From: Squalus acanthias | Taxonomy: Eukaryota | Direction: 5' to 3' | DNA: 64,000 nucleotides | Assembly: GCA_030390025.1 (NCBI GenBank) | Contig: JASTWF010000333.1 | Span: forward strand, 372,001-436,000 | Shown here: positions 17,418-56,280 of the stretch, piece after piece | Layout: each line of letters opens with the position of its first letter | Position numbering within the stretch: the stretch's first letter is position 1 | Program-made: the position numbers and the translations under genes | The notes under the pieces: generated by a model | Told to the model about the DNA's origin: nothing | Seen by the model: only the letters and a program-made list of their open reading frames with translations | The model's database searches: none

Positions 17418-20235
17418 GGGGTAAAAATTCAGTTGGTTAGCGCCTCCCGTTAATGCCTCCAGGGGGCGCTAGCGGGACGCTAACAACTTACCACCCGAAC
17501 GTGGCAATTTTAGCGCCGCCCACAAAATTCAACTGGCGGTTTGCAGTGGTGCTAAACACTACCGCCATGATCTCCTGCGCCCAGAGATCGTGACGTCATC
17601 CAAGCACGCATCGTCCCGGTAGCGCCCCGGACCGGAAATTGATTCTCGCCCCCTGCCTCAGCGCCTGCCGCTAGGAATGACAGGTAGAGGGGGACAGTTT
17701 GCAGTCGGCTGGGAGCTGGGGGAGCGCTATTTAAAGGCGTGTGCTTCCTGTTTTTTCCTGTCGGCAATCGATTCTGCCTACGCAGGTTGATAGAGGGAGA
17801 GAGGCGTTTGGAGAGATTTCACTGTTTCCAACTTGAAGGAGTTTTGCTCGTCATCAGGACTTGTCAGGTTCCCATTTCTGTAACCTTTAGTACTACCACA
17901 TTTAGAAGAGTTAATGGGGGCTGTACTGGCATGTGGCCTCACCCTCCAGCTTCACTGCCGGAGGCAGTGGAGGCGGAGAGAGAGAGTGGAAAACGTGGTC
18001 AGAGGGAGGAGGGCCAACATTGCACAAGAGACCTTACCCTCCCAGGGTATTCCGGGAGCAATTCTCCTCCATTCATTTGTCCGAGGAGCAGTGTTTCCGA
18101 AGGCTCCGCTTCAGCAAGGAGGTGGTCTCAGAGCTCTGCCACCTCCTGCAGCCAGAGCTCCAGCCTCAGCTCAGGACCAGGATGAATCTGTTGGTGGCTG
18201 TGAAGGTCACAGTTGCTCTCAATTTCTACGCCAATGGATCCTTCCAGGCTTCAACAGGGGATATTGCGAACATCGCCCAGTTCGCTGTCCATTGCTGCAT
18301 CCGGGAGGTCACAAATGCTCTCTACAGAAGGAGAAGGGAGTACATCTCATTCCCCATGACCCGAGACAAACAGCATGAACGCGCATGTGGCTTCGCGAGG
18401 ATAGCGGGCTTCCCCATGGTTCAGGACGCCATTGACTGCACACATGTGGCATTGCGGGCACCTCATCACAATGCAGAGGTTTTCCGCAAAGGATGGCACC
18501 AAACAATGACTCGATTCCAGCACTAAGCCATTGCGTTGCCTCGGCCTGTGTTGCAATAGATGCTGCCACCTCACCCATTACACGCGGCATGGGCTCTGGG
18601 TTCCCATGCTCTCCCTGCAAGTCAACCATCCTCTGCAAAGAGGCAAGGATGGGCTCGAGGGTTTGCGCACAGATGACAGCTGTGCTGGCGGTGGACTCCT
18701 CCACACTCTTAGCCAGTGCATCCATGCTCTCGGGCACCCTTACCATTGCACCCATGAGCTCAGTATGCATGCTCATTGCCTGTGTGTTCATCACAGCGAT
18801 ATTGAGATCCTCATCCGAGTCCTCTGCAGCAGAACTCGTGCGTGCACTCACCCTCCAGGGAGATGGCCCCCGAGCTTCCCTTTCCCCATGGCGTTGCTGC
18901 AGCCCGCTGGGTCCCGGAGCTTCACCCACATCAGAGCCAACACCTCTGCTCCCCTCCAGTGACCACGTGGCCCCAGTGTCCGTTGTGTCACCCTCGGGAG
19001 ACGCAGGCAGTGAGGCTCCAGCTTGGTGTTCCTGATCTTCTCCTGCATTGCTGCCACTGGGAGGCTGAGGGACAGGCTGTTCAGATGGGGGATCACTATC
19101 TGAAAGCAGGAAAGCACAAGAGTGGGTTTAACGTGAGGGGAGGGGGGGCAGGAAGGGAGCAAGGAATGGAGACAATATACTTAGATGGAAAGTGGGAAGG
19201 GCTTGTGTTGTGAGGGGGAAGTGGTATGAGAGAGGAGAGAGAGATGACGAACATACCATTGCTGTCCCCAAGGGTGTCGACCTCTCCGACTGCCACAGCG
19301 CCCACGGCATGGCTCGTGATTATTCTGTGCACTCGCTCCTCCAGCTGTGTGAGGGGGTGCAGCTCCGTCTGACCTCGTTCCATGCATTGTTGCTCCCTCC
19401 TGTTATGAGCAAGTTTGGCCTGCAAGAAAAAGGACAGCATGTGAGTGAATGTGCAGCCACGTGTTTGGCAGATGTCCCTACCATAGTTGAATAGTCGTTA
19501 ATGTCTGCAACGTGTGAGATGTGGATGTGACTTTTAGTAGATGGGCATAGTTGTTGGGTGAGTGTTGGGGATTTGACGGTTTATACCGTCTGTGCACAGA
19601 GTGAGGTTGAGATGGTGGGATGTAGAGGTATTTCAAGCATCTACTCACCCTGACCACCCGAATGAGGTCGTTGAACTTCTTGTGGCACTGGGTGCGAGTC
19701 CTTTAGAGCAGGCTTCTGGACACGACAAATGGACCACGCCCCTCCACATCCTTGTGAACTCCTGGGGCAATGGCCTCCTGCCAGTGTCTGGAAGCAGCAC
19801 TGCCCGTCGGCGTTCCACAGCCACAACCAGAGCCTCCAATGCCTGGTCGCTGAACCGGCGAGCTCTCTCCCTGGGCCTCTGAGCAGCCATGATATTCCTG
19901 GTTCAAGAATTGCACCTCCTTCCAGGCCCAGGTCAAAAGCAGCAATGATCAGGGTGAGGCTGTGCAGCATGAATGAACCTCCCCTTTAAGAACTGGAAGA
20001 CGCCAGTCTGTCTGAGTACTTGTAATTGGCAGCGCCTGAGCTTGAGCAGCGCTCTGAGGTAGCGCCCTGCTCCCCGACGTTAGCGCCCTAAGAGAAGTGT
20101 GTAGCGCTTGATTTAGCGCTCCAATCACCTCCAGGGGCGCTGGAGACGAATTTTGCGCTAATTTGCGCTGGGCGCTAAAGTTTGCGGCCGGCCGATGTTA
20201 GCGCCCCAAAATGGTCGATACTGAATTTTCCCCCC
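17418..20235 (+). mobile_element. internally deleted Harbinger element
   Basis: TIRs GGGGTAAAAATTCAG / CTGAATTTTCCCCCC, TSD TAT/TAT. Transposase 5' half (ATG 17914 to AIDCTHVALRAP) joined at ~18495 to Myb exon 3 on -. Myb exons 2 and 1 at ~19256-19418 and ~19650-19890. Confidence 0.93.
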
Positions 20236-32580: not shown

Positions 32581-34789
32581 ATAGAAACATAGAAGTTGGA
32601 GCAGGAGTAGGCCATTCGGCCCCTCGAGCCTGCTCCGCCATTCAATGAGATCATGGCTGATCATCCAAACTCAGTACCCTGTACCTGCCTTCTCCCCATA
32701 TCCCTTGATACCTTTAGCTTTAAGAAATATATCTAACTCATTCTTGAATATATTTAATGACTTGGCCTCAACTACCTTCTGTGGTAGAGAATTCCACAGG
32801 TTCACCACTCTCTGGGTGAAGAAATTCTTCCTCATTTCTGTCCGAAATGGCTTACCCCTTATCCTTAGATTATGACCCCTGGTTCTGGACTCTCCGACCA
32901 TCGGGAACATTCTTCCTGCATCTAGTTTGTCCAGACCTGTCAGAATTTTATATGTTTCGATGAGATCCCCTCTCATTCTTCTATACTCCAGCGAGTATAA
33001 GCCCAATTGACCCAATCTCTCCTCATATGTCATTCCTGCCATCCCAGGTATCAGCCTTGTGAATCTTCGCTGAACTCCCTCCATGGCAAGAACATCCTTC
33101 CTCAGATAAGGCGACCAAAACTGCACACAATACTCAAGGTGTGGTCTCACCAAGGCCCTGTACAACTGCAGCAGGACATCCCTGTTCCTATACTCAAACC
33201 CTTTCGCTATGAAGGCCAACATACCATTTGCCTACTTCACCGCCTGCTGCACCTGCATGCTTACCTTCAGCGACTGGTGCACAAGGACACCCAGGTCTCG
33301 TTGCACTTCCCCTTCTCCCAATCTATTGCCATTCAGATAATAGTCTGCCTTTCTGTTTTTGACACCAAAGTGGATAACCTCGCATTTATCCACGTTATAT
33401 TGCATCTGCCACGCTTCTGCCGACTCACCCAACCTGTCCAAATCATCCTGGAGTTTCTCGGTATCCTCCTCGCAGCACACACTCCCACCCAGCTTTGTGT
33501 CATCTGCAAACTTGGAGATATTGGGCCGAAAATTGATCCCGCGTACTCTCGCGTATTCCCACTCCAATTGCCGGTTTTCTGCATGCCCTGCGCATGCGCT
33601 GAAAACCGGCAATTGCTCTTCTGAAAAGGGGGCGGGTCCTGGGTGCATCGCGTGCGCGCTACAGGCTGCGCGCACGCTGTGCACTTCATGCTTTGGACGC
33701 GCAGGTAAGTACTGAAGATTTTGGAAATGTAAAAAGGAGGAGTAAGACCCGCTTTTAAGAAGGTAAGTAGTGAATTAAGTATTTTTTTGATTTTTTTTTT
33801 ACAGTTATATCTTTTTTAGAGACTTTAAAGACAGGTAAGTTTATTTTTATAACTTTTTAAAAGATTTTAAATTTTTTCAAAAATTTAATTTTTTATTTAA
33901 AATGGTTAATTTAATTAACTATACTTATTTTATTAATGTGATGGTTTTTTTTTATTTAATTGAGGTTTAGCTGTTATTTTGGGGGGGTGTAAGATTCATA
34001 GATTTCACAGCAGGTCTGTGAAACTTATGAATGGAAGATGGTGTGCTGCCATTGGCTCTAACTGAGTCACGTGATCCCACAGCTCGCACGAATTCACTAC
34101 GCCGCTGGGATACGCAAGCCCAGCACAGCTGATGTCTGGAACATCAAGTTCGTGCGAGCTGGATCTGAAAAAGCACAAGCGAGGTGAGACATCGCGGGGA
34201 AGGCTTACCCCCGCGGGAACAGAGCGAGATCAATTTCTGGGCCATTACATTTAGTTCCCTTATCTAGATCATTAATGTATATTGTGAATAGCTGGGGTCC
34301 AAGGACTGATCCCTGCGGTACCCCGCTAGTCACTGCTTGCCACTTGGAAAAAGACCCATTAATTCCTACTCTTTGCTTTCTGTCCACCAACCAGTTCTCT
34401 ATCCAAGTCAATACCTTGCCCCCAATCCCATGTGCCTTAACTTTACATGCTAATCTCTTATGCGGGACCTTATCGAAAGCCTTTTGAAAGTCCAAATACA
34501 CCACATCTACTGGTTCTCCCTTATCTATTTTCCCAGTTACATCCTCAAAAAATTCCAGTAGATTAGTCAAGCACGATTTACCTTTTGTAAATCCATGTTG
34601 ACTTTGTCTGATCCTGTCACTGTTTTTCAAGTGCTCAGCTATTACATCCTTTATAATGGACTCTCGCATTTTCCCCACTACCGATGTCAGGCTTACCGGT
34701 CTGTAATTCCCCGCTTTCTGTCTACCACCCTTTTTGAATAGTGGGGTAACATTAGCTACCCTCCAATCCATGGGTACAGTTCCAGATTC
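32581..34789 (-). mobile_element. CR1 LINE 3' fragment (RT to 3' end), split by a MITE
   Basis: ORFs 34205..34771, 33232..33684 ([12 protein letters not shown]) and 32671..33222. (ATAGAAAC)n tail at 32581. Confidence 0.95.
33523..34243 (+). mobile_element. 721-bp Harbinger-type MITE with AT-rich core
   Basis: TIRs GGGCCGAAAATTGATC / GATCAATTTCTGGGCC, TSD ATT/ATT. Removal restores the CR1 peptide TKCNISKFADD. Confidence 0.9.
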
Positions 34790-36819: not shown

Positions 36820-39800
36820 AAGGGAGGGGGGTCTGGGGGGCTGGGCGGCAAGCCCATATTGGAGAGCTGAGCCATCTGGAGACGAGAATGCTGCAGATTA
36901 TTGGGCACCAAGTCATCGGTACTGTGGCCACCAGTGATGTTGACCCCCTTGGGTTATGTTCATTCCTAATCTTCCTTCTCACATCTCACTTCCCCCTCAT
37001 CCCACAATCTTTTCTCACTTTCAAGCTACTCATGCTGTATGCATGCATTTCTCCCTTCCCGCCCCCCTCCCCTCACCATAACCAGACTCTTGTGCCTTTA
37101 TGCTTTCAGATAATCAGCAAGCACCCGAGCAGCCTGTCCCCGAGGGCACCGCAGAGAGTGAGGGGGGAGAAGAGGAGGAGGAAGATGACACCAGGTCACT
37201 GCATCTGTTACTCGCAGACACCATCTCAGAAACTGGCACTACACATTCTTTAGATGCTAGCATAGTAGCGGAATCTGCACAGGGTGAGGCACCAGGCACA
37301 AGTGGGCTGCAGCAAGGCCAGTGGGAAAGGGTAGCTCGGGAGTCAGCTCCCCGGAGGGTGAGTTCGTACGTGAGGTCTGCTGCACAGGACTCAGATGAGG
37401 ACCTCGATGGGGAGGCCTTCAGAAGAAGGGTGATGGGGATGCACACGGAGATGATAGGTGCAATGGCAAGGGTGCCCGAGAGCCTCTCAGCAATGGTAAG
37501 GAACGTGAATGTTCCAACATTGCACCGGGCTCTGTGCAGAACAAGGAGACCAGGATTTTCAGTCTGGAAATGGTGGGACACTCCCAGAGAGACCGTGGCG
37601 ACCCAGACGTGATGGTATGCATGATGAGCGATGTCGCAGCTTCCATTGCAGCACAGGTAGAAGCAACCCAACATTTTAGTGCTGCAGCGGAAGCTCAGAC
37701 CGCTCTCATGCAGTCTCTGCTTGGTGCCATCCAAGCTCTGGCTGCCATCGTGGTTGGGTCTACCACCATCGACCGGGGCTTTCACGGCATCGCAGCAGGC
37801 CAGTAATCGGTACTCCAACAGATTGCTAGGAATGCTGAGGTGCTGCCCTGGGGAAGTGGCAGTGGGTTTGTGGAGCAGGAATCTGCTGTCCCCTCTCAGG
37901 ATGACAGCATTCCTGCTCCCACCACTGCCACTCCGCCATTGCCCTTGCAGCTGCCTGTCAGCCAGCCAGCCCAGACTGCTGCTGCCCATGCCGAGGTGGT
38001 GCAGTTTGCAGCCGGGCCTTCAGGTCCACAGCTGGTCGAGGTCATTCTGCAAGGCCATCTGAAGTCTTCCGCACGGAAATTCAGCAGCCTTCCACCAGCC
38101 CTGCTGCAGCCATTGGGGGAGCACTGTGTACGAGCACTAGACTAGGAAAAGGCACATGAACAAAAGGCACTAAGGGATTGCACAAGGGTAATTAGTGAAT
38201 AGCATTCATGTACTATGTGTGATATGTTTATAGATAAATTTATTAATGGTGTTTGTAATCTTTTGTGGTGTCTCTAATTTCAGCTTTGCGCCCAGGATGA
38301 CGCTGTGATATGGCGTGAGACAGGGATGGTATGGTAGGGATGTGGTGAGCTGCGGGGATCTGGGATTTCATTCATGTGAATCGGAGGCTGATGAGCTGGT
38401 CATGGACAGCCCATCCGGAAGGCTGATTGTCTCCCTGCCTCCGTCCTCCCGCCTGTTCCTCCTTCTCGTCCTCATCCTCCTCATCCTCATCCACCTCTAC
38501 CTCATCCTCCTCTTGAGGTGGTCCCGCAATCCCTGGTGGCAAGGGCTCTGCCCTCATGATGGCCAAGTTGTGGAGCATGCAGCAGATCCCCACGAAATGG
38601 GACACCCGCTCAGCCGAGTATTGGAGGGCAACTCCCGAGTGGTCAACGCAGCGGAACCGTTGCTTCAGTAGGCCGATGGTCTGCTCGATGATGTTCTTGA
38701 TGGCAGCATGGCTCTCATTATATGAGTGTTGGGCACAAGTGTTGGGGTTGCGGAGAGAAATCATGAGCCAGGTGGAGAGCGGATAGCCCTTGTCTCCGAG
38801 CAGCCACCCTCGAGCTTGACGTGGTGGCTGGAAGAGTTCCGGCACACCAGTCTGGTGCAGGATGAAGGCATCGTGGCTGCCGCCAGGATAGCGGGCATTG
38901 ACATTGAGGATTCGCTGTCTGTGGTCACACACCAACTGCACATTAAGTGAGCGGTAGCCTTTGCGGTTACAGAAGATCTCAGGATTGTTATGCGGTGCCC
39001 GCAAAACCACATGGGTACAGTCGATGGCGCCCTGCACCATGGGAAAGCCCGCTATCCTGGCAAAGCCACATGCACACTTGTCCTGCTTCTCTCTGGTGAT
39101 CGGGAAGCCAATGTAGTCCCTTCTCCTGGTGTAGAAAGCCTCAGTGATCTCCCGGATGCAGCGATGATCGCTGAACTGTGAGATGTTAGCTTTGTCTCCT
39201 GCTGCAGACTGGAAGGATCCGCTGGTGAAGATATTGCGGGCAACAGTGACCTTGACTGCCACTGGGAGAGCCGTGGTCATCCTGATCTGAGGTTCGAGGT
39301 CTGGTTGCAGGAGGTGGCAGAGTTCTGTGACCACCTAATTGGTGAAGCGAAGCCTCCTAATACACTGCTCTTCGCTTAATTGAAGGTAGGAGAAGTGATG
39401 TCGGAAGACCCTAGGAGGGTAAGGCCTCCTGTTGAAGCCCTAATGGCCCTCATCCTCCCTCTGCGCACTTGTTCCCATCTTTCTCGCTGCCTCCGCTCCC
39501 TCCGCCATAGATCCTGGAGGGCGAGGTCGACTGCCAGTACAGCCCCCATGACTTCTAACAAGTGTTGTAATTTGAAGCGTTTCAAAAATAATGAGACAGT
39601 TTTGTACTTGCCAGAAAACTCCTTGATACCAAATAACCTTGAAATGACTAAAGAAAATTCTTGCAGTAGCAGGAAGTAGCTCACAGCCACTCAAACCTCA
39701 AAACCCTGTCAGATGTGAGTGATTGGTGAGGATCCCTTTAAATATCATCGCTGGAGCCGGCTTCCTGCTGCTGCACGCCAGTTCTACCTGTTGTTGCTTT

Positions 39801-40054
39801 CTCCAGCTGGTAAGTTCAATGGCCAAAAGGAAGATGGGAAAACGGGTGTCAAGTGAGCGTTGCATACTCACTGACGTCATGATATCCTTGATTGCGATGT
39901 CCCCAGCGAGCGAGTTTAGCGGCAGCGCTATCGGCAAGACAGATATGGCATGCAGCGCTGGAACCACCATCAGCTGGCGGTCGAGCGCTGAACAGCATTT
40001 TAGTGCCATCTCGTGGCGCTAACGTGTGGCACTAAACACATGAATTTCTCCCCC
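36820..40054 (-). mobile_element. Harbinger element, Myb-side end truncated
   Basis: TIR TGAATTTCTCCCCC ends 40054. Transposase on -, Myb exons 2-3 on + (36820-38190). Confidence 0.9.
38372..39549 (-). pseudogene. Harbinger DDE transposase (HARBI1-like family)
   Basis: ATG at 39549 (MGAVLAV), one frameshift and one stop, then an open 320-aa ORF with [26 protein letters not shown] and IIEQTIGLLKQRFRC. Confidence 0.92.
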
Positions 40055-40134
40055 AATACTAATTTCAATTCTGAATTTACTCACTTGAATTTGAAAGTAA
40101 TACTGGGATTTCATACAGCACATTATTACATCCC

Positions 40135-40287
40135 TCAGACTAACAACCCAGAGGTCATAAGTTCAAATCTCACCATCATTAACTGTGAAATGAATTCAAT
40201 AAATTTGATAATTCGTAGACTAGCTTCACAAAAATGATTGTGAAAGATGCTGCATTACTGTAAAAACCCAAATGCATCAGGGATTTT
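40135..40287 (+). mobile_element. tRNA-derived SINE, left half (right half at 49192-49320)
   Basis: B-box-like AGTTCAAATC at ~40160. The sequence appears to resume after 49191 and ends in GCAACTAGGCATGAGCAATAAATACTGCCTTG, the same tail type as LINE 4382-5303. Confidence 0.6.
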
Positions 40288-41885
40288 CGCCTAGAAATTC
40301 AGTTTGAGAGAGCCCATTGTTTGGGCGCTACGGTTGCCGAATTGAGACCAAATTGGCGTCCGAGCAGCAGTGCACACATCTAGTGCAAGCCGAGTCAAAC
40401 GCCATCTTGGTGAGGGACTTAGGGTGGCCGTTAGGAGCGTGCACTAGAGGTATGGTAAGTAGGCAGATTGTGACGCTGATTTGCTGTCAGCGCTGCCATT
40501 TTCATCGTCATCGCTGGAGCAAACACCCTCTCCTAACCTCATATAGCTGAACATGTATTCATTAGCAGGAAGGACACCCCACCAGCCATATTTAAAAGGA
40601 TCATCAACAACTTTCAGGTAACTTGCTTTTTGATTTCTACTGGCTCTGTGTAAGTTTGTGGAACTGTTTGGAGATTTCTAGAGTTGTTTAAAGTAGGTGA
40701 GGTGACAAGGAGTGGTGCTGCAAGTGGAGAAGACCTTGCTTCTGACTTCAAGGGTTCTGGTCAGACCACTTGCTCTAGTTGTTATCCCCCTTGGCCAGCA
40801 GCATGACAGGGAGATGGAGCAGAGGCAGCGAAGAAGAGGACAAGCTGCTCACAGAGGGAGGAGGAGGAGGAGGAGGGGGAGAAGGGCTCTCTGCAGGAGG
40901 CCTTACCCACCTAGGGTCTTTCGAGAACAATTCTCTGACCTCAGCCTGAGCCAGGAGCAGTGTGTAAGGTCTCTGCGCTTTACGAAGGAGGTGCTGACAG
41001 AACTGTGCCACCTCTTGCAACTAGACCTGCAGCCTCACTCCAGGGCAAGGACAGCGCTGCCAGTGGCTGTGAAGGTGACCATGGCCCTGAATTTCTTTGC
41101 CTCAGAATCCTTCCAGACTGGAGCAGGCAACATCTGTAAAATCTCGCAGTTCACCATTCACTGCTGCATAAGTGAGGTGACAGACACTCTTTATACCAGG
41201 AGAGGGGATTTCATTGTCTTCTCTCTGACCAGAGAGAAGCAGGCGGTGCGTGCACGTGGCTTTGCCAGGAGAGCGGACTTCCCCATGGTGCAGGGGACAA
41301 TCGACTGCACGCACATTGCTTTGCGGGCACCGTATATAAATGATGAGATGTACCGCAATTGCAAAGGTTACCATTCGTTGAATGTGCAGTTGGTGTGTGA
41401 CCAAGCTCAGCATATCATGACGGTGAATGCCCAGTATCCTAGCAGCAGTCATGATGCTTTTATTCTGTGCCAGCCCGCTGCTCCCTCAGTCTTTGAGCCA
41501 CCAAGATAAACCAGAAGGTGGCTACTGGGTGACAAGGGCAATCCCTTGACCAGCTGGCTGACGACTACACTTCGCAGCCCAACCACATGTGGCCAGAATG
41601 CGTACAACGAGAGCCATGCAGCCACATGAAACATCATAGAGCAGACCGCTGGCGTCCTTAAACGCTTCCGCTGCCTGGACCGCTCTGGCGGAACCCTGCA
41701 GTACTCACCGGAGTCTGTGTCCCAATTCTATCGTGGTCTGCTGTATCATCCACAAACTGGCCATCATGAGGGCACAGCCCTTGCCACCAGGGATATGGCC
41801 ACCAACTCAGGAGCAGAAAGAGGAGGAGGCGGAAGAGGAGGAAGCAGAAGCGAAAGGAAGGAGGCAACCCAGACAGCGCTTTCTC

Positions 41886-42703
41886 GCCAGGATGTTGATG
41901 GGGGGGAATTTGGCGATGGTAATGCCGTTGAATGTGCAGTGATTAGAGTTTCACTTGTTGGAGATAGTCATTGCCTGGCACTTGTGTGGCGTGAATGTTA
42001 CTTGCCACTTATCAGCCCAATGTCATCCAGGTCTTGCTGCATTCGGGCACGGACTGCTTCATTATCTGAGGAGTTACGATTGGAACTGAACACTGTGCAA
42101 ACATCAGCGAACATCCCCATTTCTGTCTTTATGTTGGAGGGAAGGTCATTGATGAAGCAACTGAAGCTGGTTGGGCCTAGGACACTGCCCTGAGGAACTA
42201 CTGCCGTGATGTCCTGAGGCTGAGATGATTGACCTCCAACAACCACAACCATCTTCCTTTGTGCTAGGTATGATTCCTGCCAGCGGAGAGTTTTCCCCCT
42301 GATTCCCATTGACTTCAATTTTACTAGGGCTCCTTGATGCCACACTCAGTCAAATGCTGCCTTGATGTCAAGGGCAGTCACTCTCCTCGCCTCTGGAATT
42401 CAACTCTTTTGTCCATGTTTGGACCAAGGCTGTAATGAGGTCTGGAGTCGAGCGGTCCTGGTGGAACCCAAACTGAGCATCGGTGAGCAGGTTATTGGTG
42501 AGTAGGTGTTGCTTGATAGCACTGTCGATGACACTTTCCATCACTTTGCTGATAATTGAGTGTAGACTGATGGGGTGGTAATTGGATGGATTGAATTTGT
42601 CCTGCTTTTTGTGGACAGGACATAACTGGGCAGTTTTCCACATTGTCGGGTAGATGCCAATGTTGTAGCTATTCTGGAACAGCTTGGCTAGAGGCGTGGC
42701 TAG
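41886..42703 (-). mobile_element. second-family LINE RT fragment (provirus target)
   Basis: ORFs 42368..42715 and 41998..42345 ([24 protein letters not shown]). Colinear with 61645-62474. Confidence 0.9.
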
Positions 42704-43440
42704 TGTAGCTTCCAAAAGCTCTTATAATAATTTGTCCATGACTACACAAACCACTCTGGGTACAGGTATATTGTGTATAAGTAAAACAGGTTTATTAAGC
42801 ATTAAACATCCAGTACAAAGAAGTAATACTTAACAAGGAGATAGTCACAGTCTTGTGCTTTTGAGCCTCGGCATTCTTTCCGAGTGACTGTGGCGCAGTC
42901 TCTTTATTCTCTTGCTGTGTTCTGTTGACTGAAGCTCGCTTCTCTGGTTTTTTGCTGTGTTCTGTTGACTGAAGCTCCTTCAACTCTGATTCTTGGTTCG
43001 TGCTGCCTTCAGTGTTCAATATCTGTATCTTTATACACTTTCCCTTCCTTTGCCTACGTGACTATAATCAACTATCTGACACCTGGTACATGTTTTATTA
43101 CCTTGTTGATTCCACTAGGTCTCGCTTTGTGCATATCAAAGTGCCCTTTATCTTTAGATGTTCTCATTTCAAAGACCATTTCTCAAGATGTTGTCTAAAC
43201 AGTCTGTCCATTTTATAGTGGTATCACTGAGGGGTGCCTTCAATAAACTTAGCACTACATTCCATTACTTCAGTAATTGAAAACAGAGCAGTTTCAGTCA
43301 GGTTGGCATCATTTCCCATCCTGCTTTCCTCTCAGCCATTCTCCATTTTATATAGGCTTTTAGGCTTTTAACATACAATTTCACATATTATAATTAAACA
43401 AAAATGTTTACTAAATCATACAAATTCACCCTATCCTACA
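42704..43440 (-). repeat. 3' LTR of the provirus (737 bp)
   Basis: On -, begins TGTAG (43440) and ends CTACA (42704). Preceded by purine tract AAGGTAGGGA. TATAAA at ~43031-43036 and AATAAA at 42791-42796. LINE homology resumes exactly at 42703. Confidence 0.85.
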
Positions 43441-43482: not shown

Positions 43483-45993
43483 CTAATATCTTACATATGG
43501 ATTAGTTCTCTTTCGTTTGTGTAACTCTAAGGTATTTTGGGTTGTGATCATATTTAAATGTGATTGGGTATTAGACATCAGGTGTTTCAGGTAGCAGGTG
43601 TATAGTAGTAAGCATATTAGTACTATGAGTTGGGCTATGACCAGTACATGGGAAATCATTCTAATCCAAGGAGAAATTTTCATATTTGTTCCTGTATCCC
43701 ACCAGTGGGTCTGAATCTCGATGTCTGGAATTTCCTCGGCTATGTCTTTATTTCCTTGCACCAACGTATAATAATGGCGTTGAGAGGTGCTCACTTGACT
43801 TATTAGCTCGGTTAATGCTTCAGGTAACTCAGGGATGTCATATCCGAATCTTGTGACATAATCTTCTAGATTTATTTTTAAATCATCTTCTACTTGTAGT
43901 ACTTGTTGGCCATGTGAGGCTATTACAAGGAGAATTCTTCCTCCTATTACCGTAGTCTTTGTCGGGGTAATACAGTAGGTCCCTGGGGTTATTGAACATT
44001 CAAGTGTTCCATGACTATAGGAGTTTTCTAAAGTAGTAAAACAATACCTCCCTTCTCATACGTAGGCTGTTCTAGTTCTTACATCTGAGGGGCCTGTCAC
44101 TTCCATGGTACAGTTTAACCTTTCTTCATTCCAACCATATCCACAGGTATCCTTTGAATGTTCATATAAACTGTATGGACAGACAAAGGCATCCTCATTT
44201 GTATTGCATCCCTGGAGGTTTGGTTCAATCCATGTTAGTTTTCCTAATTGTACTAACCATTGTGGTGCCATGAGAAATCGGGTAATGGTATTCCCTTTTA
44301 CTACTCCTATATTTTCTATCCTAAATAGGGGGTTGGACCTAGTTCGATTCATTAGACTAGGAATTTGTGGTATTAGTCCCATTAACCTTTGACTCCCTAC
44401 CTCGTGGCATTCGTGTTTGATAGGGTGGATCCCAATCAAACTCCTGATCTTACATAGTTCTGTATCATTGTAATAGCTGGATAGCCCTGATAAGTGTTTA
44501 TTAGTGACCAAAGTGGGGAGACGTCCCTGATTGATGGTCTGAAGGTTTTCCCTAGTTTGCTCAATCAGCCAATTCCCGTACATACGTCATTATGGGCTGC
44601 TTGATCAGAGGCATTTCTGTTTTCTTTAATCAGATCATTAATTCTTTTGGCATGATCCTCTATTTAATGTATGATGTCCCACAGGTGTATGGTCATTACC
44701 TGATCCTCCTTTAGCTCCTCGCTTACTATGTTGTTTTCCCTACTAAGTATCTCCTTCAACTTTTCCCTTACCGTTTGTAATTGTTTTTGTAAATCTGCGG
44801 AGTCCATTGAGTTAATTACCGATGTTACTATGTTGAAACCTGTGAGTCCATCGTTTATCAATCCTCTTTTCTGTCTACTCTTTCCCTGACTGCTCTCTTT
44901 AGTGGTACTAAGCTCGTGACGGAAGGTCCCTTCTGTTTTCTCTATGCTTATTTATAAGGTCACCTTTTCCCAGTACTGATTAAAAACTTGCTGCAGCATT
45001 CTCTGAGTTAGTTGTGCTGTTTTGTCAGGGCACCACTTTGGTAGTATTAGTTCTGTAAAATTTAGGATAACAGGGGCCACTTCCTGTATTACTTGATGAT
45101 ACACTGCTTTATAGGTGGGTATAATTACAAGACCGTTCCCAGGCCCCGGTGTTAGTTGGGGACATTGTTCCTCAGGTACACCCTCTCGTGGTTCTGAATG
45201 ACTTGCTTTCTCATAGGGTGTGAGCTTAACACTGTAGACATACCCATCTTCCCTTACACATCCAGTTATCACATTTTTGAATTCTATTATGCTGTTATCT
45301 TTATTCCCAAAATCTCTATAATTTCCCCAACGTTTAAAGGTTATCATAAAGGGTTTATTTTCTGCTGCGGTGATCTCTGTATCGTCTCTGGGAATCTTAT
45401 ATCCTGCTGAGGTAATCTTTACATTATATTCGGGAATAGGAGGCCAATCATCATCCTGATTTTTAAAGCCCATGATAATATTTGACCCAATACAAGAATA
45501 CTTGTTTCTTCCACCACCGAGGCCAGCATAATTGTATATATCCCTTACTTTCCGAAGCTACTGGTCCCTGGTTTGATTCTTGTACCTGTTCCCAGATTCC
45601 ATTCTTTTTCTTCAGGAATTTCCACACATTTGGGCCTTTCTTGTTCCTTATCCTGCACCTGATACACACACCATATCCTTCTTTTATTTCCCAATTATAC
45701 ACCTTTCCTTGTAATGTACCACAACCCGTTATGTATGGTGTTGTTATATTATCTTTTGTACTATTTCTGATCCAAACTGGAACATTCCCCTCATACGTCT
45801 CGGATGATCCGTTATAGTTCTTTGATTGTCTATGTCCACCAACAATTCGAGGTTCCGTTCCATAGATGGGGAGTGGGGCGCATTCGCCTCCTTCGTCCAG
45901 TGTACAGATGTTAATGGTAATGTCAAAAGGTTTTGTTACCTCCGGAGAGCTCACTGCACATCCGATTATCAGTATCAGCAAACAGAGCCACAT
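43483..45993 (-). pseudogene. env: retroviral-like envelope glycoprotein, F-like class I fusogen, ~837 codons, 3 stops + 2 frameshifts
   Basis: Signal peptide MWLCLLILIIGCAVSS. RQKR (44865-44876) then GLINDGLTGFNIVTSVIN. Heptad region, Cys-rich region (ENIG..PNLQGC..FVCP..TCG..NC..YCF..ECS..YCI), WW motif, TM ISHVLVIAQLIVLICLLLYTCYL and short tail. Confidence 0.88.
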
Positions 45994-46026: not shown

Positions 46027-48598
46027 TTAATTCTTAACAGTTTTCATCTGATTGATATGGAACCATTTCAGTTTAGGTTCTCCCTTCGGACCATATGGGA
46101 CATTCAGTAGATACACAGCTGGATTTCATTTATCTACTATGGTATGAGGGCCCGTCCATTTTATCTCAAATTAGTGTTTTTTTGGAGAGAAATTTTGTAA
46201 CATTACTCGGTCTCCAACATCATACTCAAATGGTTTTACCCTCTTATCATAATATCGCTTGATTTATTCACGCGATTTGCCTATGTTAATGGCCACCAGC
46301 CTGTTCACCTCGTCCATATGATCTATCAAGGTTTGTAACCATTTTTGGCTACATGGTTGTAGTTTTAATGGTGTGTTATTTCCCAATGTTACATGTCCTG
46401 GTATCCACATTTGTCTCCCAGTCATAGCCTCATATGGACTTACCCTCGTAGTCCCGTGTGGGGTAGAGCGTATTGCCATTAGACATAAAGGCAACATGTC
46501 AGTCCACTGAGTGGGGTCTTCTGTACACAACTTCTGCAACATACGCCCAAAAACTCGGCCCTTCCCGGGTGAGTACACAGTCCGTACTCACCCGTATTGC
46601 TTCCTGAAGTGCCGGTTTCCTGCATGCACTGCGCATGCGCGGGAAACCGGAACTTCCGGTATGGTGAAGGGGGCAGTTCCTAGGTGAACCGCATGCACGC
46701 TAGAGGCTGCGCACACGCAGCACACTTAGATTTTTTTTCAGGTTTCTACGCGAGGGTAAGTATGGAAGATACTACGCTAATGAAAAGGAAGCGCAAGACC
46801 CGTTTTGAACAAGGTAAGTGGTTAATTAAGTATAATTTAAAAAATTTTCAACAGGTTTATCTTGTTTAGATACTTTAAAGAAAGGTAAGTTTATTTTTAT
46901 AACTTTTAAAAAGTATTTTAATTTTTTCAAAAATTAAAATTTTTGTTTAAAGTGGTTAATTTATTTAACTATAGTTATTTTATAAATGTGATGGTTTTTT
47001 TTTAATTTATTTTAAGTTTAGCTGTTCTTTTGGGGCCAATTTCAATTCACAGATTTGACAGGTCTCCTGTCAAATCTATGAATGAAAGATGGTCTGCTGC
47101 CATTGGCTGTCCATGGCCCACATGATCCCAGGGGACGCATCGCACTAACTGCGCCCCTGGAACACGCAAGCACTGCGCGCCGGCAGTTGGGAGAGGCCCA
47201 GGACCCGAAGTTCCCGTGGGCCCAAAACACAACGGCAGGCGCGGTAGGTAAGAGCGCGCGTGATCCTTACCCCCGCGGCAAGCCGGACAGGCGAATTTCT
47301 GGGCCATTGTCTTTAAAGTTCGATTTCCCCTCTCCACAATCCCTGATGATTGTGGATGGTGCGCAATGTGCAATTTATGTTTTATCTGTAACATTTCTTG
47401 AAGAGTTGTGAAAACTGCCCCCGTAAAGTGTGGACCCTGATCGCTATCCACTTGTAATGGCAATCCCCACCTACAGAACACCTCACTCAGGAGAATTCGA
47501 GCTGCGGTGCGTGCTGTGTTATTTCTCGTGGGAAAAGCCTCTATCCATTTAGTGAACTGATCGATTACCACAAGTGCGCACTCATAGTTTCCCTTGGATT
47601 TTGTTAGTGGACCAATAAAGTCAATCTGTAAGTGTGTCCATGGTCCCTTAGGAGGGGGCTGTGACCTAAGTAAAGCACGATTTGAACATGAAGGGGGGTT
47701 TGCCTGTAGGCATGGCAGGCAGCGATTAACATATTGTTCCACATGCTGCTCCATTCCAGGCCACCAGCAAACAGGTAAAAACTTTTGTAGTGTCGAGGCC
47801 GCTGAGTAATGTCCCGCCGTCGGGTGAGAATGAAAGAGAGCTAGAATTTCTTCCTTTAACTGAGGAGGAATACAAACTACTAGATCTCCCTCTTTATTCC
47901 TGAACATTAGTAGGGGAGGGTTTTTATCTACACCTTGTTGCATTACAGTGGAGTCTGCCCATAGGGTGGGTGCTGGTAGCGGGCATCCCTGTTGATGCCA
48001 GGCTATTACCTGCACATAAGGAGCATATGAATCCTGTAGGGCCAAAAGATCAATGGTTTCAGTCTTAGTCACCGTCCCCACTCCGGGGGTCTGAGTCTCA
48101 TTCATCACCCACCAAGGTAGTAACTTTCCGTTCTCGGCCGCATCCCAGCAAAGCGATCGGCCATTTGGTTACCTCGGGAATGGGGGGATGAATCTTTCTG
48201 ATGGGCTGCTACCTTACCCACGTGACAAGGGGCGACTCGTTCCTGGAGCACTTTCCATAGCTTACGGAGGAGACCAGAATTTAATAAAGATTTACCATCT
48301 GATGAGCAAAACTCATTTGTATTATAGAGGGGAAGAGCCATAACTGTGTTACAAATGTAACTGCTGTCGGACCAGATATTTGTTTCATCCATAGTCGTGT
48401 AATGTACGGCTAGAATTACAGCAATCAGTTCTGCCTGTTGTGAGGAGTGGACGGGAACTTGAAATCCCTCTGAGCATCGATATCAATAAGGGCACATCCA
48501 GTTCTAGGGTGGCTGTCTACACAGTATGATGACCCGTCAACGTACACATTTCGAGCTCCGGGTATGGCGTTAGCCTTTACTGGGTTTGGTTCCATATC
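46027..48598 (-). pseudogene. pol: pol 3' part: RNase H + integrase
   Basis: RNase H: VYVDGSS, ELIAV, IWSDSSY, KVAAH..GNQMAD. Integrase: HHCC (HSHPTAGH..CLPC), LQIDFIGP, VDSDQGPHF, PQSSGIVERGNRTLK, SPYEAMTGR, KWTGPHTI, KWFHINQMK, stop at 46027. Confidence 0.93.
46544..47305 (+). mobile_element. 762-bp Harbinger-type MITE (same family as 33523-34243) inside the integrase
   Basis: TIRs CGCCCAAAAACTCG / CGAATTTCTGGGCC, TSD ATA/ATT. Removal restores RTLKTMLQKLC. Confidence 0.88.
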
Positions 48599-49339
48599 TA
48601 GCACTGGTGCAGATGGTAGGATATGGCATTTGAAGATGAATTCACTGACCTTGATCACGCGTGTGAGCTCATTAAACTTCTTCTTGCACTGAGTCCAGGT
48701 CCTCGGGGCTATACTACTGGCATTGACCACACTGGCTATCTGCTCACACTGCACTCTCGTCTGTTGCTGGGAAGGCCTCCTGGCCCCTCTGTGAGAAGAG
48801 GACCTCTCTGCTGGAGTTGACCTCCTGGATCAACACCTCCAGTGCTGCAGAGAATCTTGGAACCCTTTCTCTGGCTTGTTGAGCCATTACTCAATCTTCT
48901 TTTTCTGACCATAGCCTCCACAAACACTTCCAGCACCTGTTGCAGGCAGAAGGCTCCTCCCCTTTATGTTGTGCAGGCTAGCTTTAGTTGGAGCTAGACT
49001 CACACGAACTTAGAGCTCTGCTGAGCGTTCAGCACTCAGCAGCGCGTTCAGCGCTTGGCTGAATGCTATAATCATGCAAAGTAGCAGGCAGCACGAATGT
49101 TATGTGCTGCCTGCAGTCCTCCGAACGGGCCTGGGTTCCTATCACATCGCAATCCCCATGGCCATTTTCAGGGCTACCGAATTTCTAGGCCTAAACCTTT
49201 TACCCCTATCTAGCCTACGAGTAACTCCAGTCCTGCATGTGGTCCCTTAATGCCCTCAAAGCAACTAGGCATGAGCAATAAATACTGCCTTGTAAGGGTT
49301 GCATACAACCTGCAGATAACTAAAAATGAGATGAATGAT

Positions 49340-49528: not shown

Positions 49529-49658
49529 GTTGGCTAACACTGCGTATATTTGAGAAACATTCTGAAACTAGTCTTTCACAGTCAAATTAATAATTAATTA
49601 AAATTCCACCTGTCAATATACTGATTAAAAACGTTAATATTTCCCATTTTATACTCAC

Positions 49659-49743
49659 ACCGACCTTTTCACTAAAAGTATCGCTGTCGAGGTCTATTGC
49701 CCTCTTAGCACTAACAGACAGTGACCCAGGGAGCCCAAAAGAA
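49659..49743 (-). CDS. putative internal coding exon of the host gene
   Basis: Acceptor tttcatattgtttcag, donor GGT/gtgagt. Only one open frame: SFGLPGSLSVSAKRAIDLDSDTFSEKVG. Lies in unique AT-rich sequence. Confidence 0.6.
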
Positions 49744-50607
49744 CTGAAACAATATGAAATAAAACATTTGTATAGCACAATAAAGTAAAATTGCTCTGAA
49801 TGGTATTAATAACAGATGCACTAACACCTTCAAATAGAATTCCTCTGTGTACTAATTTAGCATATTCCTTAACTGATTTAAAGCAAACAGATTAACAAAT
49901 ATATTAAAATAGTACACAGGAATTTCAGATAAATGCACTAATGTGCTTGTTAGAAACACTACTGAAAGCAATTTCATCCCCCAATAGTGTTATGATTTTT
50001 TAAATTATTTTTCATATATACTGACTAAATGTTCTGTTGCAAACCAAAAATGTAAGAAATTAACTTTCCACAAATAAATTTAATTAAACACATTGAGGGA
50101 AAAATTCAGTTGGTTTGCGCCTCCTGTTAGCGCCTTAAGAGGGCGCTAATGGGGCGCAAAGCAACTAGCGCCCGGGCGCGGCGATATCTGCGCCTCTCGC
50201 GAAATTGACCGGACATTTTACGGCGGCACTAAACAATACCGCCCCGATCTCCTGCACTCGCAGATCTTGACGTCATTCGAGCATGCAACGCCCTTGTGGC
50301 GCCCCGGAACGGAAATTGAGTGACGCTCCCATCCTTTCCGCCAGGCGCAACCAACGACAGATAGACTGAAACGCTTCCCAGTCGCTGTGGGGCTGGGGGG
50401 GGCGCTATTTAAAGGGGGCCTCTTCCTGGCTTTTTCTGTGATAGACATTTTTGCACCACTCGTTCTGAAAGAGTGAGAGAGAGTCTGAGAGAGAGAAAGA
50501 GAGACTTCTGCATTGAGTCAACGCTGTGTGAAGTAGTTTTGGCTACTGAGCATAACTTTGCAGGTACTTTGGTTTTTGACCTTCATAACTTTGATTGCCA
50601 AGAGACT

Positions 50608-51760
50608 ATGAGGGCTGCACTGAGTGGGGGCGTCGTCCTGTGCCAGCAGAATCGGAGGCCACAGAGACGCAGAGAGAGAGTGGCAATCATGGCCAGACGG
50701 AGGAGGGCCAACAGGCCTCTGTACAGGAGACCTTACCCTCCCAGGGTATTTCGCCAACAATTCTCCTACATTAATATGTCTGAGGAGCAGTGTTTGCGAA
50801 GGCTGCGCTTCAGCAAGGAAGTGGTCACTGAGCTCTGCCACCTGCTGCAGCCAGATCTGCAGCCTCAACTGAGGACCAGGACGTCTCTGTCGGTGGCAGT
50901 GAAGATCACAGTGGCTCTGAACTTTTATGCCACCGGCTCATTTCAATCAGCTACTGGGGACATCGCCGATATCTCCCAGTTCGTGGTCCATTGCTGCATC
51001 TGTCAGGTCACAAATGCCCTCTATAAAAGGAGATGAGAGTACATCTCTTTCCCCATGACCCCGGCCAAGCAGCAAGAACGCGCAATGGGCTTTGCGAGGA
51101 TAGCGGGCTTCCCCATGGAGCAGGGTGCCATTGACTGCACGCATGTGGCTTTGCGTACTCCGCATGAGAATGTAGAGGATTTCCGCAACCGAAAGGGGTT
51201 CCATTCCTTAAATGTGCAGTTGGTCTGTGACCACAGACAGCTGATACTCGCTGTCAATGCCCACTATCCTGGCAGCAGCATTCATCCTGCGCCAGACTAC
51301 TGTGGCAGAACTTTTCCAGGCACCGCATCACCCAGGTAGTTGGCTTCTCGGGGACAAGGGATATCCACTGTGCACCTGGCTGATGACACCGCTCCGTACG
51401 CCCAACACCCCTGCTGAGCTGCAGTACAACGAGAGCCATCTCGCTACCAGGAACATCGTTGAGCACACAATCGGCGTGCTCAAGCAACGGTTCCGCTGTC
51501 TGGACCACTCAGGAGGAGCCCTGCAGTACTTGCCTGAGCGAGTTTCCCTCTTCATAGTTGTGTGCTGCATGCTGCATAACATGGAAATCCTCAGGACCCA
51601 GCCAATGCCACCAGGCCTTGGAGCACCACCAGAGGAGGAGGAGGAAGAGGAGGAGGAAGAGGAAGAGGATGATCATCAGCAGCACCAAGGCGGGAGGGAG
51701 GCCCACAATGTTGAAACTGGAAGGGCCGTCCGTCAACGTCTGATAGCAAGCCACTTCTAG
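50608..51760 (+). pseudogene. Harbinger DDE transposase with two lesions
   Basis: ATG at 50608, in-frame TGA at 51034-51036, ~8-bp deletion after 51278 removing the SHD motif. [17 protein letters not shown] and [16 protein letters not shown] are intact. TAG ends at 51760. Confidence 0.93.
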
Positions 51761-54091: not shown

Positions 54092-55027
54092 AGTCCTTGG
54101 CTGGAAGATTTAGCCACAGGTCTCTCCAGGCTGAGATTCAAGGCTCCAATGAGCAGGGTGTGGCTGGAGAGCAAGATCGAGCCTCCCCTTTAAGAACTGG
54201 CCGGCGCCAGTGTGTCTGTGTTCCATCGCTAACTGACAGCACCTGCGCTGCGCCCGCGCTCTGAGGTAGCGCCTCGCTCCTCGGCCTTTGCGCCTTAAGA
54301 CAGGTGTGTAGCGCCTGATTTAGTGCTCCAATCAACTCCAGGGGCGATAAAAGCCAAATTTGCAGTCGGAGGCGATAATTAGCACCAGGCACTAAACTTT
54401 GCGCACGGCCGATAATCACGCCCCAAACGGGGCGAGACTGAATTTTCCCCCATTATATATACTGAGCGTAAAGACAGTTTAAATGGCAGATTTAGTTCAT
54501 TGTTATAGAGATGTGAATATTTTAGCAGAATAAAAGAATACACATATAAATCAATAACCTGTTTGAAAAAACTTTTTCTAATTACACACGTTAATGTCAC
54601 ATGAGATTTTGGTTGAGAAGAAAAAAAATCCATTATTCTACAACCCATAAAATCCATGGATCAAGATGACCTTCACAACTGATACCTACTTACATAATTG
54701 AATCATAGATTTGATAAGGTTAAAACCATTGACTTACAAGATACCTCAGAGCACTCAGTGCGTTGCATATAATTTCATTTTTTTAGTGCAAAAATTATCC
54801 GAAGGCTAGCAATTCACAAATATCTGTGGTTTAATATCCTTTATTGATAATGATATGCATAAATGTAAGCACAATGAGAAAAAAGATGTTATCAACCTTC
54901 ACACTATCTGTACCCAATTTAATAGAAATTATAATCTTGGGTGGGAGATGATTTGCACCTTAACTAGGCAAGAAAGCTGTAACCATTCCCCTTTGAGAAC
55001 AGTTAGCAACAATGTAGTAACCTTTCC

Positions 55028-55105
55028 CTTGCAGGTAGATTGAGTCATAACCTATATCTTGGGAAAATGCAGAAGATATAGGTTATGACTCATTCTACGT
55101 GCAAG
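55028..55105. repeat. inverted repeat, 33-bp arms, 12-nt loop
   Basis: CTTGCAGGTAGATTGAGTCATAACCTATATCTT / AAGATATAGGTTATGACTCATTCTACGTGCAAG, 2 mismatches. Confidence 0.95.
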
Positions 55106-55110
55106 AGGCG

Positions 55111-56280
55111 GGGAATGTGCCGATCCGGGGTGATGTCCCGATCCGGGGAGATGTCCCGATCCGGGGAGATGTCCCGATCCGGGGTGATGTCCCGATCCGG
55201 GGTGATGTCCCAATCCGGGATGATGTGCCGATCCGGAGTGATGTCCCGATCCGGGGTGATGTCCCGCTCCGGGGTGATGTCCCGATCCGGGGTGATGTCC
55301 CGATCCAGGGTGATGTCTCGATCCGGGGTGATGTCCCGATCCGGGGGAATGTCCCGATCCGGGGTGATGTCCCGATCCAGGGGGAATGTCCCGATCCGGG
55401 GGAATGTCCCGATCCGGGGTGATGTCCCGATCCGGGGGAATGTCCCGATCCGGGGTGATGTCCCGATCCAGGGGGAATGTCCCGATCCGGGGTGATGTCC
55501 CGATCCGGGGTGATGTCCCGATCCGGGGTGATGTCCCGATCCAGGGGGAATGTCCCGATCCAGGGGGAATGTCCCGATCCGGGGGAATGTCCCGATCCGG
55601 GGTGATGTCCCGATCCAGGGGGAATGTCCCGGTCCGGGGGAATGTCCCGATCCGGGGTGATGTCCCGATCCGGGGTGATGTCCCGATCCGGGGTGATGTC
55701 CCGATCCGGGGAGATGTTCCGATCCGGGGAGATGTCCCGATCCGGGGTGATGTGCCGATCCGGAGTGATGTCCCGATCCGGGGTGATGTCCCGCTCCGGG
55801 GTGATGTCCCGATCCGGGGTGATGTCCCGATCCGGGGTGATGTCCCGATCCGGGGTGATGTCCCGATCCGGGGGAATGTCCCGATCCGGGGTGATGTCCC
55901 GATCCTGGGGGAATGTCCCGATCCGGGGTGATGTCCCGATCCGGGGGAATGTCCCGATCCGGGGTGATGTCCCGATCCGGGGTGATGTCCCGATCCGGGG
56001 TGATGTCCCGATCCAGGGGGAATGTCCCGATCCGGGGGAATGTCCCGATCCGGTGTGATGTCCCGATCCAGGGGGAATGTCCCGGTCCGGGGGAATGTCC
56101 CGATCCGGGGTGATGTCCCGATCCGGGGTGATGTCCCGATCCAGGGTGATGTCCCGATCCGGGGTGATGTCCCGATCCAGGGTGATGTCCCGATCCGGGG
56201 TGATGTCCCGATCCGGGGTGATGTCCCGATCCGGGGTGATGTCCCGATCCGGGGTGATGTCCCGATCCGGGGTGATGTGC
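55111..56280. repeat. 18-bp CpG-rich minisatellite, roughly 65 units
   Basis: Unit GATCCGGGGTGATGTCCC with variants GATCCGGGGGAATGTCCC and 19-bp GATCCAGGGGGAATGTCCC. Confidence 0.97.

What the first reader, a model, noticed from the sequence alone, without database searches (positions are those of the whole stretch)
43483..44876. Env TM subunit mixes errantivirus/baculovirus-F-like and foamy-like signatures
Seen: the cleavage junction RQKR/GLIN..G, and downstream FRIENIG..PNLQGCNTNEDAFVCP..TCG..NCTMEV..GRYCF. From memory, the first resembles the RxKR/GLxN consensus of insect gypsy Env and baculovirus F. The second has cysteine spacing like the NIG..LxxC..C..CG..C region of foamy Env and the Cys-rich region of paramyxovirus F1. 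Inference: an informative intermediate for class I fusogen evolution.
Basis: partly seen in the sequence, partly recalled or inferred. Interest (0 to 1): 0.7.

Follow-up and report, generated by a model that had tools for sequence, protein, structure and literature searches.

The report
Dead shark provirus with F-type envelope
This is a broken envelope gene of a many-copy endogenous retrovirus, probably in a shark, whose intact relatives are predicted to fold like measles/RSV-type fusion proteins; the 'mixed' signatures are likely old shared features of that already described fold, not a new hybrid.

Summary
The motifs are real, but lie in an env gene broken five times, downstream of RNase H and integrase remnants. 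Named relatives come from sharks, a skate, frogs and coelacanth. Models of two natural relatives match paramyxo/pneumovirus F (best Z 11.2) and foamy Env (Z 7.9), plus baculovirus F in predicted libraries. So the F-type (class Ib) assignment holds. F-like folds are already in print for foamy, loki and errantivirus Env. What differs: a ~275-residue N-terminal extension, three extra conserved cysteines, and a pol of unsettled lineage (no RT in the window). This scan noted F-type Env proviruses elsewhere in this genome before. Side finding: an intact relative is 85-88% identical across three shark orders, a candidate co-opted gene. New variant of a known kind; interest 0.35.

The parts
43483..45993 (-). 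env gene, broken (frameshifts near 45500 and 44580; stops at 44954, 44666, 44058)
   Evidence: six-frame translation; tblastn of natural relatives covers 45323-43516 in two frames
45946..45993 (-). predicted signal peptide at the env start
   Evidence: ATG at 45993 and hydrophobic stretch, mean hydropathy 1.85 over 19 residues; no signal-peptide predictor run
45165..45945 (-). N-terminal extension ahead of the F scaffold, about 260 codons after the signal peptide; part is possibly Ig-like; likely receptor-binding (inferred)
   Evidence: aligns to the N-terminus of a skate relative (z 8.9, 0 of 200 shuffles) and weakly to three shark relatives (z 3.7-4.3); UniRef calls P0002 'Ig-like domain-containing'; region unmodelled, pLDDT<50
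45129..45164 (-). start of the F scaffold (Cys-Pro...Pro-Gly-Pro-Gly motif), equivalent to the F2 N-terminus
   Evidence: matching residue ~189 of P0002 aligns to residue 23-35 of solved F proteins; like the motif right after the signal peptide of printed loki Env
44865..44876 (-). furin-type cleavage site RQKR
   Evidence: sequence; basic site at the same place in 10 relatives
44793..44864 (-). predicted fusion peptide
   Evidence: follows the basic site; mean hydropathy 0.86 over 19 residues; function inferred
44580..44792 (-). predicted long helix (heptad repeat A) ending in a conserved cysteine; interrupted by a stop at 44666
   Evidence: long helices in both models; cysteine in 16 of 23 relatives
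43963..44325 (-). cysteine-rich beta region (predicted domains I/II): four-cysteine cluster plus three further cysteines
   Evidence: beta strands at pLDDT 70-92 in both models
43600..43659 (-). predicted transmembrane anchor, followed by a ~38-residue tail
   Evidence: mean hydropathy 2.74 over 19 residues
46042..47871 (-). integrase (HHCC zinc domain, D,D-35-E core, C-terminal domain), split by an insertion
   Evidence: Pfam PF17921 5e-18 and PF00665 5e-14; contigs of other copies join 46539 to 47305 in 3 of 4 runs
46540..47304 (.). 765-base insertion of a very high-copy repeat into integrase
   Evidence: 76% like window 33542-34119; depth far above the provirus and skip joint
48156..48550 (-). 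RNase H domain, frameshifted near 48475
   Evidence: Pfam PF00075 2e-13; PDB best hit MuLV RNase H 5e-8
42705..43440 (-). putative 3' LTR (purine-rich tract then TG at 43440; lower end uncertain by ~30 bases)
   Evidence: LINE-like repeat starts at 42704; higher depth than the internal region; no 5' LTR in the window to confirm it
48600..48830 (-). Myb/SANT fragment of a Harbinger-type repeat that bounds the remnant; gag, protease, RT and 5' LTR are absent from the window
   Evidence: Pfam PF13873 E 0.005, below its cut-off; no RT, protease or CCHC motif nearby

Best explanation
The stretch is the C-terminal half of a broken env gene in the 3' remnant of a many-copy endogenous retrovirus, probably of a shark, and its protein family is predicted to be an F-type (class Ib) fusogen. 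In the working virus it would have been made with a signal peptide, trimerised, been cut by a furin-like protease at RQKR, bound a receptor through the N-terminal extension, and then refolded its heptad repeats into a six-helix bundle to drive the fusion peptide into the target membrane, as paramyxovirus F and foamy Env do. Shown: motifs, breaks, gene order, relatives, cysteine conservation, structural match of two relatives' models. Inferred: cleavage, trimer, receptor role, fusion. The basic site with a glycine-rich peptide and the cysteine cluster are likely ancestral features of this whole fold, which is why they recall insect, foamy and paramyxovirus proteins at once. This copy encodes no whole protein.
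For: Gene order RNase H-integrase-env-LTR. 27 relatives; of 20 looked up, 15 carry names: 12 sharks/skate, 2 frogs, 1 coelacanth. P0002 model: Foldseek PDB 244 matches at E<=0.001, best hPIV3 F 3.7e-9; VIA Z 11.2, rmsd 5.2, 278 aligned to Nipah F; Z 7.9, rmsd 7.7, 269 aligned to foamy Env 8rm0; BFVD best granulovirus F 3.3e-12, feline foamy Env 1e-4. P0029 model: hMPV F Z 8.4 (274 aligned, rmsd 8.1), foamy Env 8rm1 Z 7.8 (289, rmsd 10.8), tied. Same order of motifs and same four-cysteine cluster in printed loki Env. Shared core of foamy Env and F shown by cryo-EM (PMC11468914); F-type Env in errantiviruses. Copies 82-99% alike in runs of 9 coded organisms.
Against: The models are of relatives only 23-46% identical to window pieces, with mean pLDDT 59.9 and 67.6, pTM 0.37 and 0.35. 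In one search unrelated helical bundles score Z 7.5-8.1, as high as the foamy match. No sequence-level match to any F, foamy or baculovirus profile (one chimeric relative hits Baculo_F at E 0.0011, below cut-off). The N-terminal extension is unmodelled. 'Ancestral' is inferred from distribution, not from a tree that includes the outside families.
Confidence: 0.8

Rival explanations
1. True mosaic: fusion-peptide region from an errantivirus/baculovirus F, cysteine-rich region from a foamy Env.
Against: Insect consensus met at 2 of 6 positions, D-x-x-D shifted by three; relatives vary freely here. Cysteine cluster shared with loki Env. One continuous structural alignment to F spans both regions (residues 189-601). 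In the second model granulovirus F drops to rank 25.
Confidence: 0.05
2. The element is a lokiretrovirus, or its sister lineage, in a cartilaginous fish, with an N-terminal domain added to its Env.
For: Env motifs run parallel to printed loki Env. Integrase identity counted by eye over 179 positions: about 84 to Loki-Bsp, 66 to WDSV, 60 to KoRV, about 58 to PFV; SnRV and AciFLERV rows visibly more distant.
Against: Extension, three extra cysteines and a different fusion peptide. Integrase lacks the Thr-Val-Thr-Cys type motif of most printed loki rows, and in the catalytic core WDSV (about 53) nearly ties Loki (about 57). RNase H hits MuLV (5e-8) far above PFV (0.035), whereas loki RNase H groups with foamy. 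Wang and Han marked no shark genome as positive in the three rows I saw. Earlier scan notes put the RT of similar elements among ordinary retroviruses (untested here).
Confidence: 0.3
3. The element is a canonical retrovirus of the SnRV/OVEX1/epsilon-like grade (clade Huo or basal Mu) that kept or acquired an F-type Env.
Against: SnRV integrase row is distant by eye; walleye Env hits fall to 3e-3 and 6e-3 with the second model; by-eye RNase H counts do not separate loki, Xen-1 and MuLV; no RT here.
Confidence: 0.4
4. It is the unrecognised env of the shark/frog foamy-like clade (CmiFLERV, XtrFLERV, or the cartilaginous-fish endogenous foamy virus).
For: That clade joins shark and Xenopus elements and had no env detected (PMC5512871); this Env family also spans sharks and Xenopus; PFV is the best PDB integrase hit, 2.6e-23.
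Against: Ty3 integrase scores the same (1e-22); RNase H is far from PFV; signal peptide instead of a leader with an N-terminal membrane anchor; extension is N-terminal, not inserted inside SU. Integrase/RNase H rows of these elements were not visible.
Confidence: 0.2

Closest known systems
Lokiretrovirus Env (Wang and Han, PMC7947760)
   Same: Signal peptide, R-x-K-R site, heptad repeats, TM anchor, F-like fold; same run of motifs and the same four-cysteine cluster; integrase about 47% identical by eye.
   Different: About 275 codons precede the scaffold here against about 25 residues in loki; three more cysteines in domain II; different fusion peptide; no Pfam PF00523 hit; host class not reported for loki; RT and tether not available.
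Paramyxovirus and pneumovirus F
   Same: Predicted domains I-III align over the whole ectodomain core (Z up to 11.2).
   Different: 7-13% identity; F has a separate attachment protein and no N-terminal extension; RNA virus, not a provirus.
Foamy virus Env (PMC11468914; 8rm0, 8rm1)
   Same: Class Ib core; Z 7.8-7.9 over 269-289 residues; retroviral context.
   Different: Foamy Env has two membrane segments and its receptor-binding domain inserted inside SU; here one anchor, a signal peptide and an N-terminal extension.
Errantivirus Env and baculovirus F
   Same: F-type fold, furin site plus fusion peptide, conserved C-terminal cysteines; granulovirus F best BFVD hit for one model.
   Different: Fusion-peptide consensus met at 2 of 6; no Baculo_F profile hit; vertebrate host and retroviral RNase H-integrase.

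Membership tests
F-type (class Ib) fusogen | Domain I-III core superposes on paramyxo/pneumovirus F | tested here: met
   On models of two natural relatives; not on the window's own protein
F-type (class Ib) fusogen | Signal peptide, furin site, fusion peptide, two heptad repeats, one C-terminal anchor | tested here: met
F-type (class Ib) fusogen | Trimer that fuses membranes | not testable with these tools
   needs experiment; this copy is broken
Errantivirus Env / baculovirus F | R-x-x-R then G-x5-G-x3-K-x3-G-x2-D-x2-D (PMC6085415) | tested here: not met
   2 of 6 fixed positions in the window, 1-3 of 6 in 10 relatives
Errantivirus Env / baculovirus F | Pfam PF12259 above cut-off | tested here: not met
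   0 of 5 env pieces, 0 of 27 relatives above cut-off, 0 of 7
Foamy virus Env | Leader peptide with N-terminal membrane segment; receptor-binding domain inserted inside SU | tested here: not met
   signal-like hydrophobic stretch at the very start; scaffold is continuous from residue 189 with the extension in front
Foamy virus Env | Disulfides equivalent to those of foamy TM and F1 | not testable with these tools
   fold tools return ranges, not residue pairs or coordinates (file list)
Foamy virus Env | Sequence-profile match to foamy Env | tested here: not met
   no foamy family in Pfam scans; no foamy chain among 16 PDB hits at E<=10 with the family profile
Lokiretrovirus | RT falls in the loki clade | not testable with these tools
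   no RT in the window; no genome held
Lokiretrovirus | Dual RNase H (tether plus RNase H) with RNase H of group I | tested here: inconclusive
   tether region missing; PDB ranks MuLV over PFV; by-eye counts tie
Lokiretrovirus | Integrase of the loki/CGIN1 group | tested here: inconclusive
   highest by-eye identity among rows seen, no tree possible
Lokiretrovirus | F-like Env with short SU | tested here: not met
   F-like yes; SU side is about 376 codons against about 120 residues in printed loki Env
SnRV/OVEX1-like or epsilon-like retrovirus | RT placement in clade Huo or Mu | not testable with these tools
   no RT in the window

The most novel reading that the evidence does not exclude
The F-type fusogen is the ancestral retroviral envelope: it survives in foamy, loki, walleye epsilon and this shark/frog/coelacanth lineage, here with a modular, possibly Ig-like receptor-binding head, and gamma/beta-type Env are later replacements. 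One member of this family was captured once by galeomorph sharks and kept intact as a host gene, the first domesticated F-type retroviral fusogen in cartilaginous fish.
Probability: 0.3. Interest if true: 0.7.

Novelty: new variant of a known kind. Interest (0 to 1): 0.35.

Why it matters
The link between retroviral Env and paramyxovirus F is already published, so the finding as written adds little. The family still matters as a further, independent branch of F-type envelopes inside vertebrate retroviruses, with a third way of attaching a receptor-binding module (in front, rather than inserted as in foamy Env or absent as in loki Env). If its RT is canonical, it bears on the open choice among Wang and Han's four scenarios for Env origin. 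The conserved intact shark relative offers a natural protein for structure and expression work.

Tried and rejected
Word-index protein searches with the C-terminal part: 0 of 978 and 0 of 755 candidates; with the family alignment only 2 of 7993. Pfam on env pieces and relatives: no fusogen family above cut-off. PDB by sequence: 1 chance hit; family profile 16 hits, coiled coils. Atlas with P0002: one unnamed chordate cluster at 0.82, a lead only; with integrase: generic integrase clusters. Viral contigs: alignment too diverged to search; integrase gave 2 loci with 19-residue matches, not used. Metagenome contigs: 0 of 128 stretches. No genome held. Sequencing runs: no RNA holder listed. Profile-profile comparison with foamy, F or baculovirus alignments: no tool supplied those sequences. 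The 2026 chondrichthyan syncytin preprint concerns ISD-bearing Env, another class. Literature: ten searches showed no description of this shark Env family, of a co-opted F-type shark env, or of an F-like fold for walleye Env (0 papers); the library lacks most subscription papers, and the cartilaginous-fish foamy virus paper (PMC9972966) was not held. Scan index by sequence and near this place: nothing.

Full report
Setting. The window is repeat-rich vertebrate-type DNA with many LINE-like and Harbinger-like copies (labels from my own knowledge of these families). On the minus strand lie, in order, RNase H (48550-48156; PF00075 2e-13), integrase (47871-46042; PF17921 5e-18, PF00665 5e-14) and env (45993-43483), then a putative 3' LTR from 43440. 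No RT, protease or gag motif is near; the remnant ends upstream in a Myb/SANT fragment. A 765-base repeat splits integrase; contigs of other copies join across it in 3 of 4 runs. No whole genome was held.

Observation. Every motif quoted is there, but env is broken by two frameshifts (near 45500, 44580) and three stops (44954, 44666, 44058). Public runs of 9 coded organisms hold related sequence (20 of 23 listed rows, none with half of the words). Laid contigs are mostly 90-99% alike, and their summed depth on env and pol is some tens to hundreds of times that on the single-copy flank at 49600-50030 (the tool warns this is no copy number). Other copies differ from the window at both frameshift positions and at the 44058 stop (the other two stops are not in the truncated table), so at least these lesions belong to this copy.

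Relatives. Word-index searches found nothing. Exhaustive phmmer of the C-terminal part found 27 proteins at E<=0.001, 17 at 1e-10. Of 20 proteins looked up (19 of the 27 plus P0032), 15 carry names: 12 from sharks or a skate, 2 from frogs, 1 from coelacanth. The host is therefore probably a shark (inference). In an alignment of 26 relatives (8 stored proteins left out as redundant or chimeric gene models) seven cysteines of the cysteine-rich region are kept in 20-23 of 25-26 covering rows. A tree of 19 rows puts the window beside a set of shark proteins, with a 100/100 split from the frog, coelacanth and intact-shark group (midpoint root, no outgroup).

Fold. Two natural relatives were modelled: P0002 (739 aa, Chiloscyllium; pLDDT 59.9, residues 1-180 unmodelled) and P0029 (448 aa, unnamed; pLDDT 67.6). 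They are 23-46% identical to window pieces. P0002: Foldseek top rows are all paramyxo/pneumovirus F (best 3.7e-9). VIA gives Nipah F Z 11.2 (278 aligned, rmsd 5.2), NDV F 9.9, foamy Env 7.9 (269, rmsd 7.7). Among predicted viral structures: granulovirus F 3.3e-12, a fish filovirus glycoprotein 5.8e-12, walleye epsilonretrovirus Env 5e-9 and 6e-8, feline foamy Env 1e-4. P0029: hMPV F Z 8.4, foamy Env 7.8, tied, with unrelated helical bundles at 7.5-8.1; its viral hits are weaker and reordered (granulovirus F rank 25, walleye Env 3e-3 and 6e-3). The match starts at model residue ~189, which equals the first strand of F2, so about 275 codons of the window's env lie in front of the scaffold.

Is it a mix? 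The insect ERV/baculovirus consensus printed in PMC6085415 (passages) is met at 2 of 6 fixed positions; relatives score 1-3 of 6, and G-x-x-N follows the site in 5 of 11 rows. The cysteine cluster (spacing 8, 11, 10 residues) appears in nearly the same arrangement, with the same preceding P-N-L, in the lokiretrovirus Env printed by Wang and Han, along with three other motifs in the same order. No profile match to PF00523, a foamy family or PF12259 reached cut-off, and the family profile finds no F or foamy chain in PDB sequences. The simplest reading is shared ancestry of one fold.

Lineage. Without RT it stays open. Integrase, counted by eye over 179 positions against printed rows: about 84 identities to Loki-Bsp, 66 to WDSV, 60 to KoRV, about 58 to PFV; in the catalytic core loki and WDSV nearly tie. 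RNase H ranks MuLV 5e-8, HERV-K 6e-3, PFV 0.035 among 14 PDB hits, while loki RNase H groups with foamy; by-eye counts do not separate loki, Xen-1 and MuLV. Shark and Xenopus foamy-like elements form a clade with no env found, which this family's hosts echo, but their rows were not visible. Earlier scan notes on other F-type proviruses of this genome place RT among SnRV/OVEX1-like retroviruses; I checked only that OVEX1 RNase H is described as SnRV/MMLV-like.

Mechanism. Shown: anatomy, decay, relatives, predicted fold of relatives. Inferred from the class Ib model (PMC11468914, section 9): signal-peptide entry, trimer, furin cut at RQKR, receptor binding by the N-terminal extension, heptad-repeat refolding and fusion. 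The extension aligns with that of a skate relative (z 8.9) and weakly with three shark ones, with Cys and Trp spacing that recalls an Ig domain; Pfam gives no Ig hit for the window piece, so this is a lead. This copy is non-functional.

Known and new. In print: loki Env like F (PMC7947760: main text parts 1-3 of 4; supplement parts 1, 76, 77, 81, 82 and passages; file cut at page 300 of 318, which hid the foamy-like integrase rows); foamy Env like F (PMC11468914: abstract, section 9, passages); errantivirus F-type Env (bioRxiv 2023.10.26.564294: abstract, first part of section 6; supplements closed); a class I tree (PMC12583693, passages). Also seen: passages of PMC5512871 (with supplement passages), PMC9040795 (with one supplement file's passages), PMC10699275, PMC6001957, PMC13709493, PMC6085415, PMC1262188, PMC2717909; part 1 of 2 of PMC4422223; parts 1-2 of 4 of 10.64898/2026.05.06.723177; a term search without hits in PMC12813294. 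PMC9972966 was seen only as a reference title and may describe related elements. Ten searches did not show this Env family described; the scan itself noted F-type Env with an extra head on other DNA of this genome many times.

Side finding. P0002, P0032 and P0033 (Chiloscyllium, Scyliorhinus, Heterodontus) are full-length, 85-88% identical and sit on end branches of 0.03-0.04 where the tree's median is 0.29. Three shark orders (my own knowledge) with an open 740-750-codon env suggest a captured gene under selection; a recent cross-species virus is the alternative, and synteny was not testable.

Verdict. Observation confirmed; interpretation partly supported; new variant of a known kind; interest 0.35.

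Noticed in passing
proteins P0002 (GCC29952.1), P0032 (XP_072333160.1), P0033 (XP_067889054.1): Full-length intact Env relatives, 85-88% identical across three shark orders, on very short branches: candidate co-opted F-type env gene.
   Followed up: partly
fold search of P0002 model: Walleye epsilonretrovirus Env (WDSV, WEHV1) and a fish filovirus glycoprotein match the F-type model; one paper search found no report of this for walleye Env; hits weaken with the second model.
   Followed up: partly
window 45666-45480: Cys/Trp pattern recalling an Ig domain in the env extension, cut by the frameshift near 45500.
   Followed up: partly
window 46540-47304: 765-base high-copy repeat inserted in integrase, with another copy at 33542-34119 inside a LINE-like RT.
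   Followed up: partly
window 38370-41940, 50410-51760, 12500-13500, 18000-18500: Many Harbinger-like transposase copies in both orientations.
   Followed up: no
window 55020-56250: Tandem array with an 18-base period.
   Followed up: no
proteins P0012, P0019: Database gene models in which a piece of this Env is joined to a cadherin-like or F-box protein; could be annotation artefacts or exonisation.
   Followed up: no
window 42735-42790: Other copies show a ~50-55-base tandem unit at the putative LTR end.
   Followed up: no
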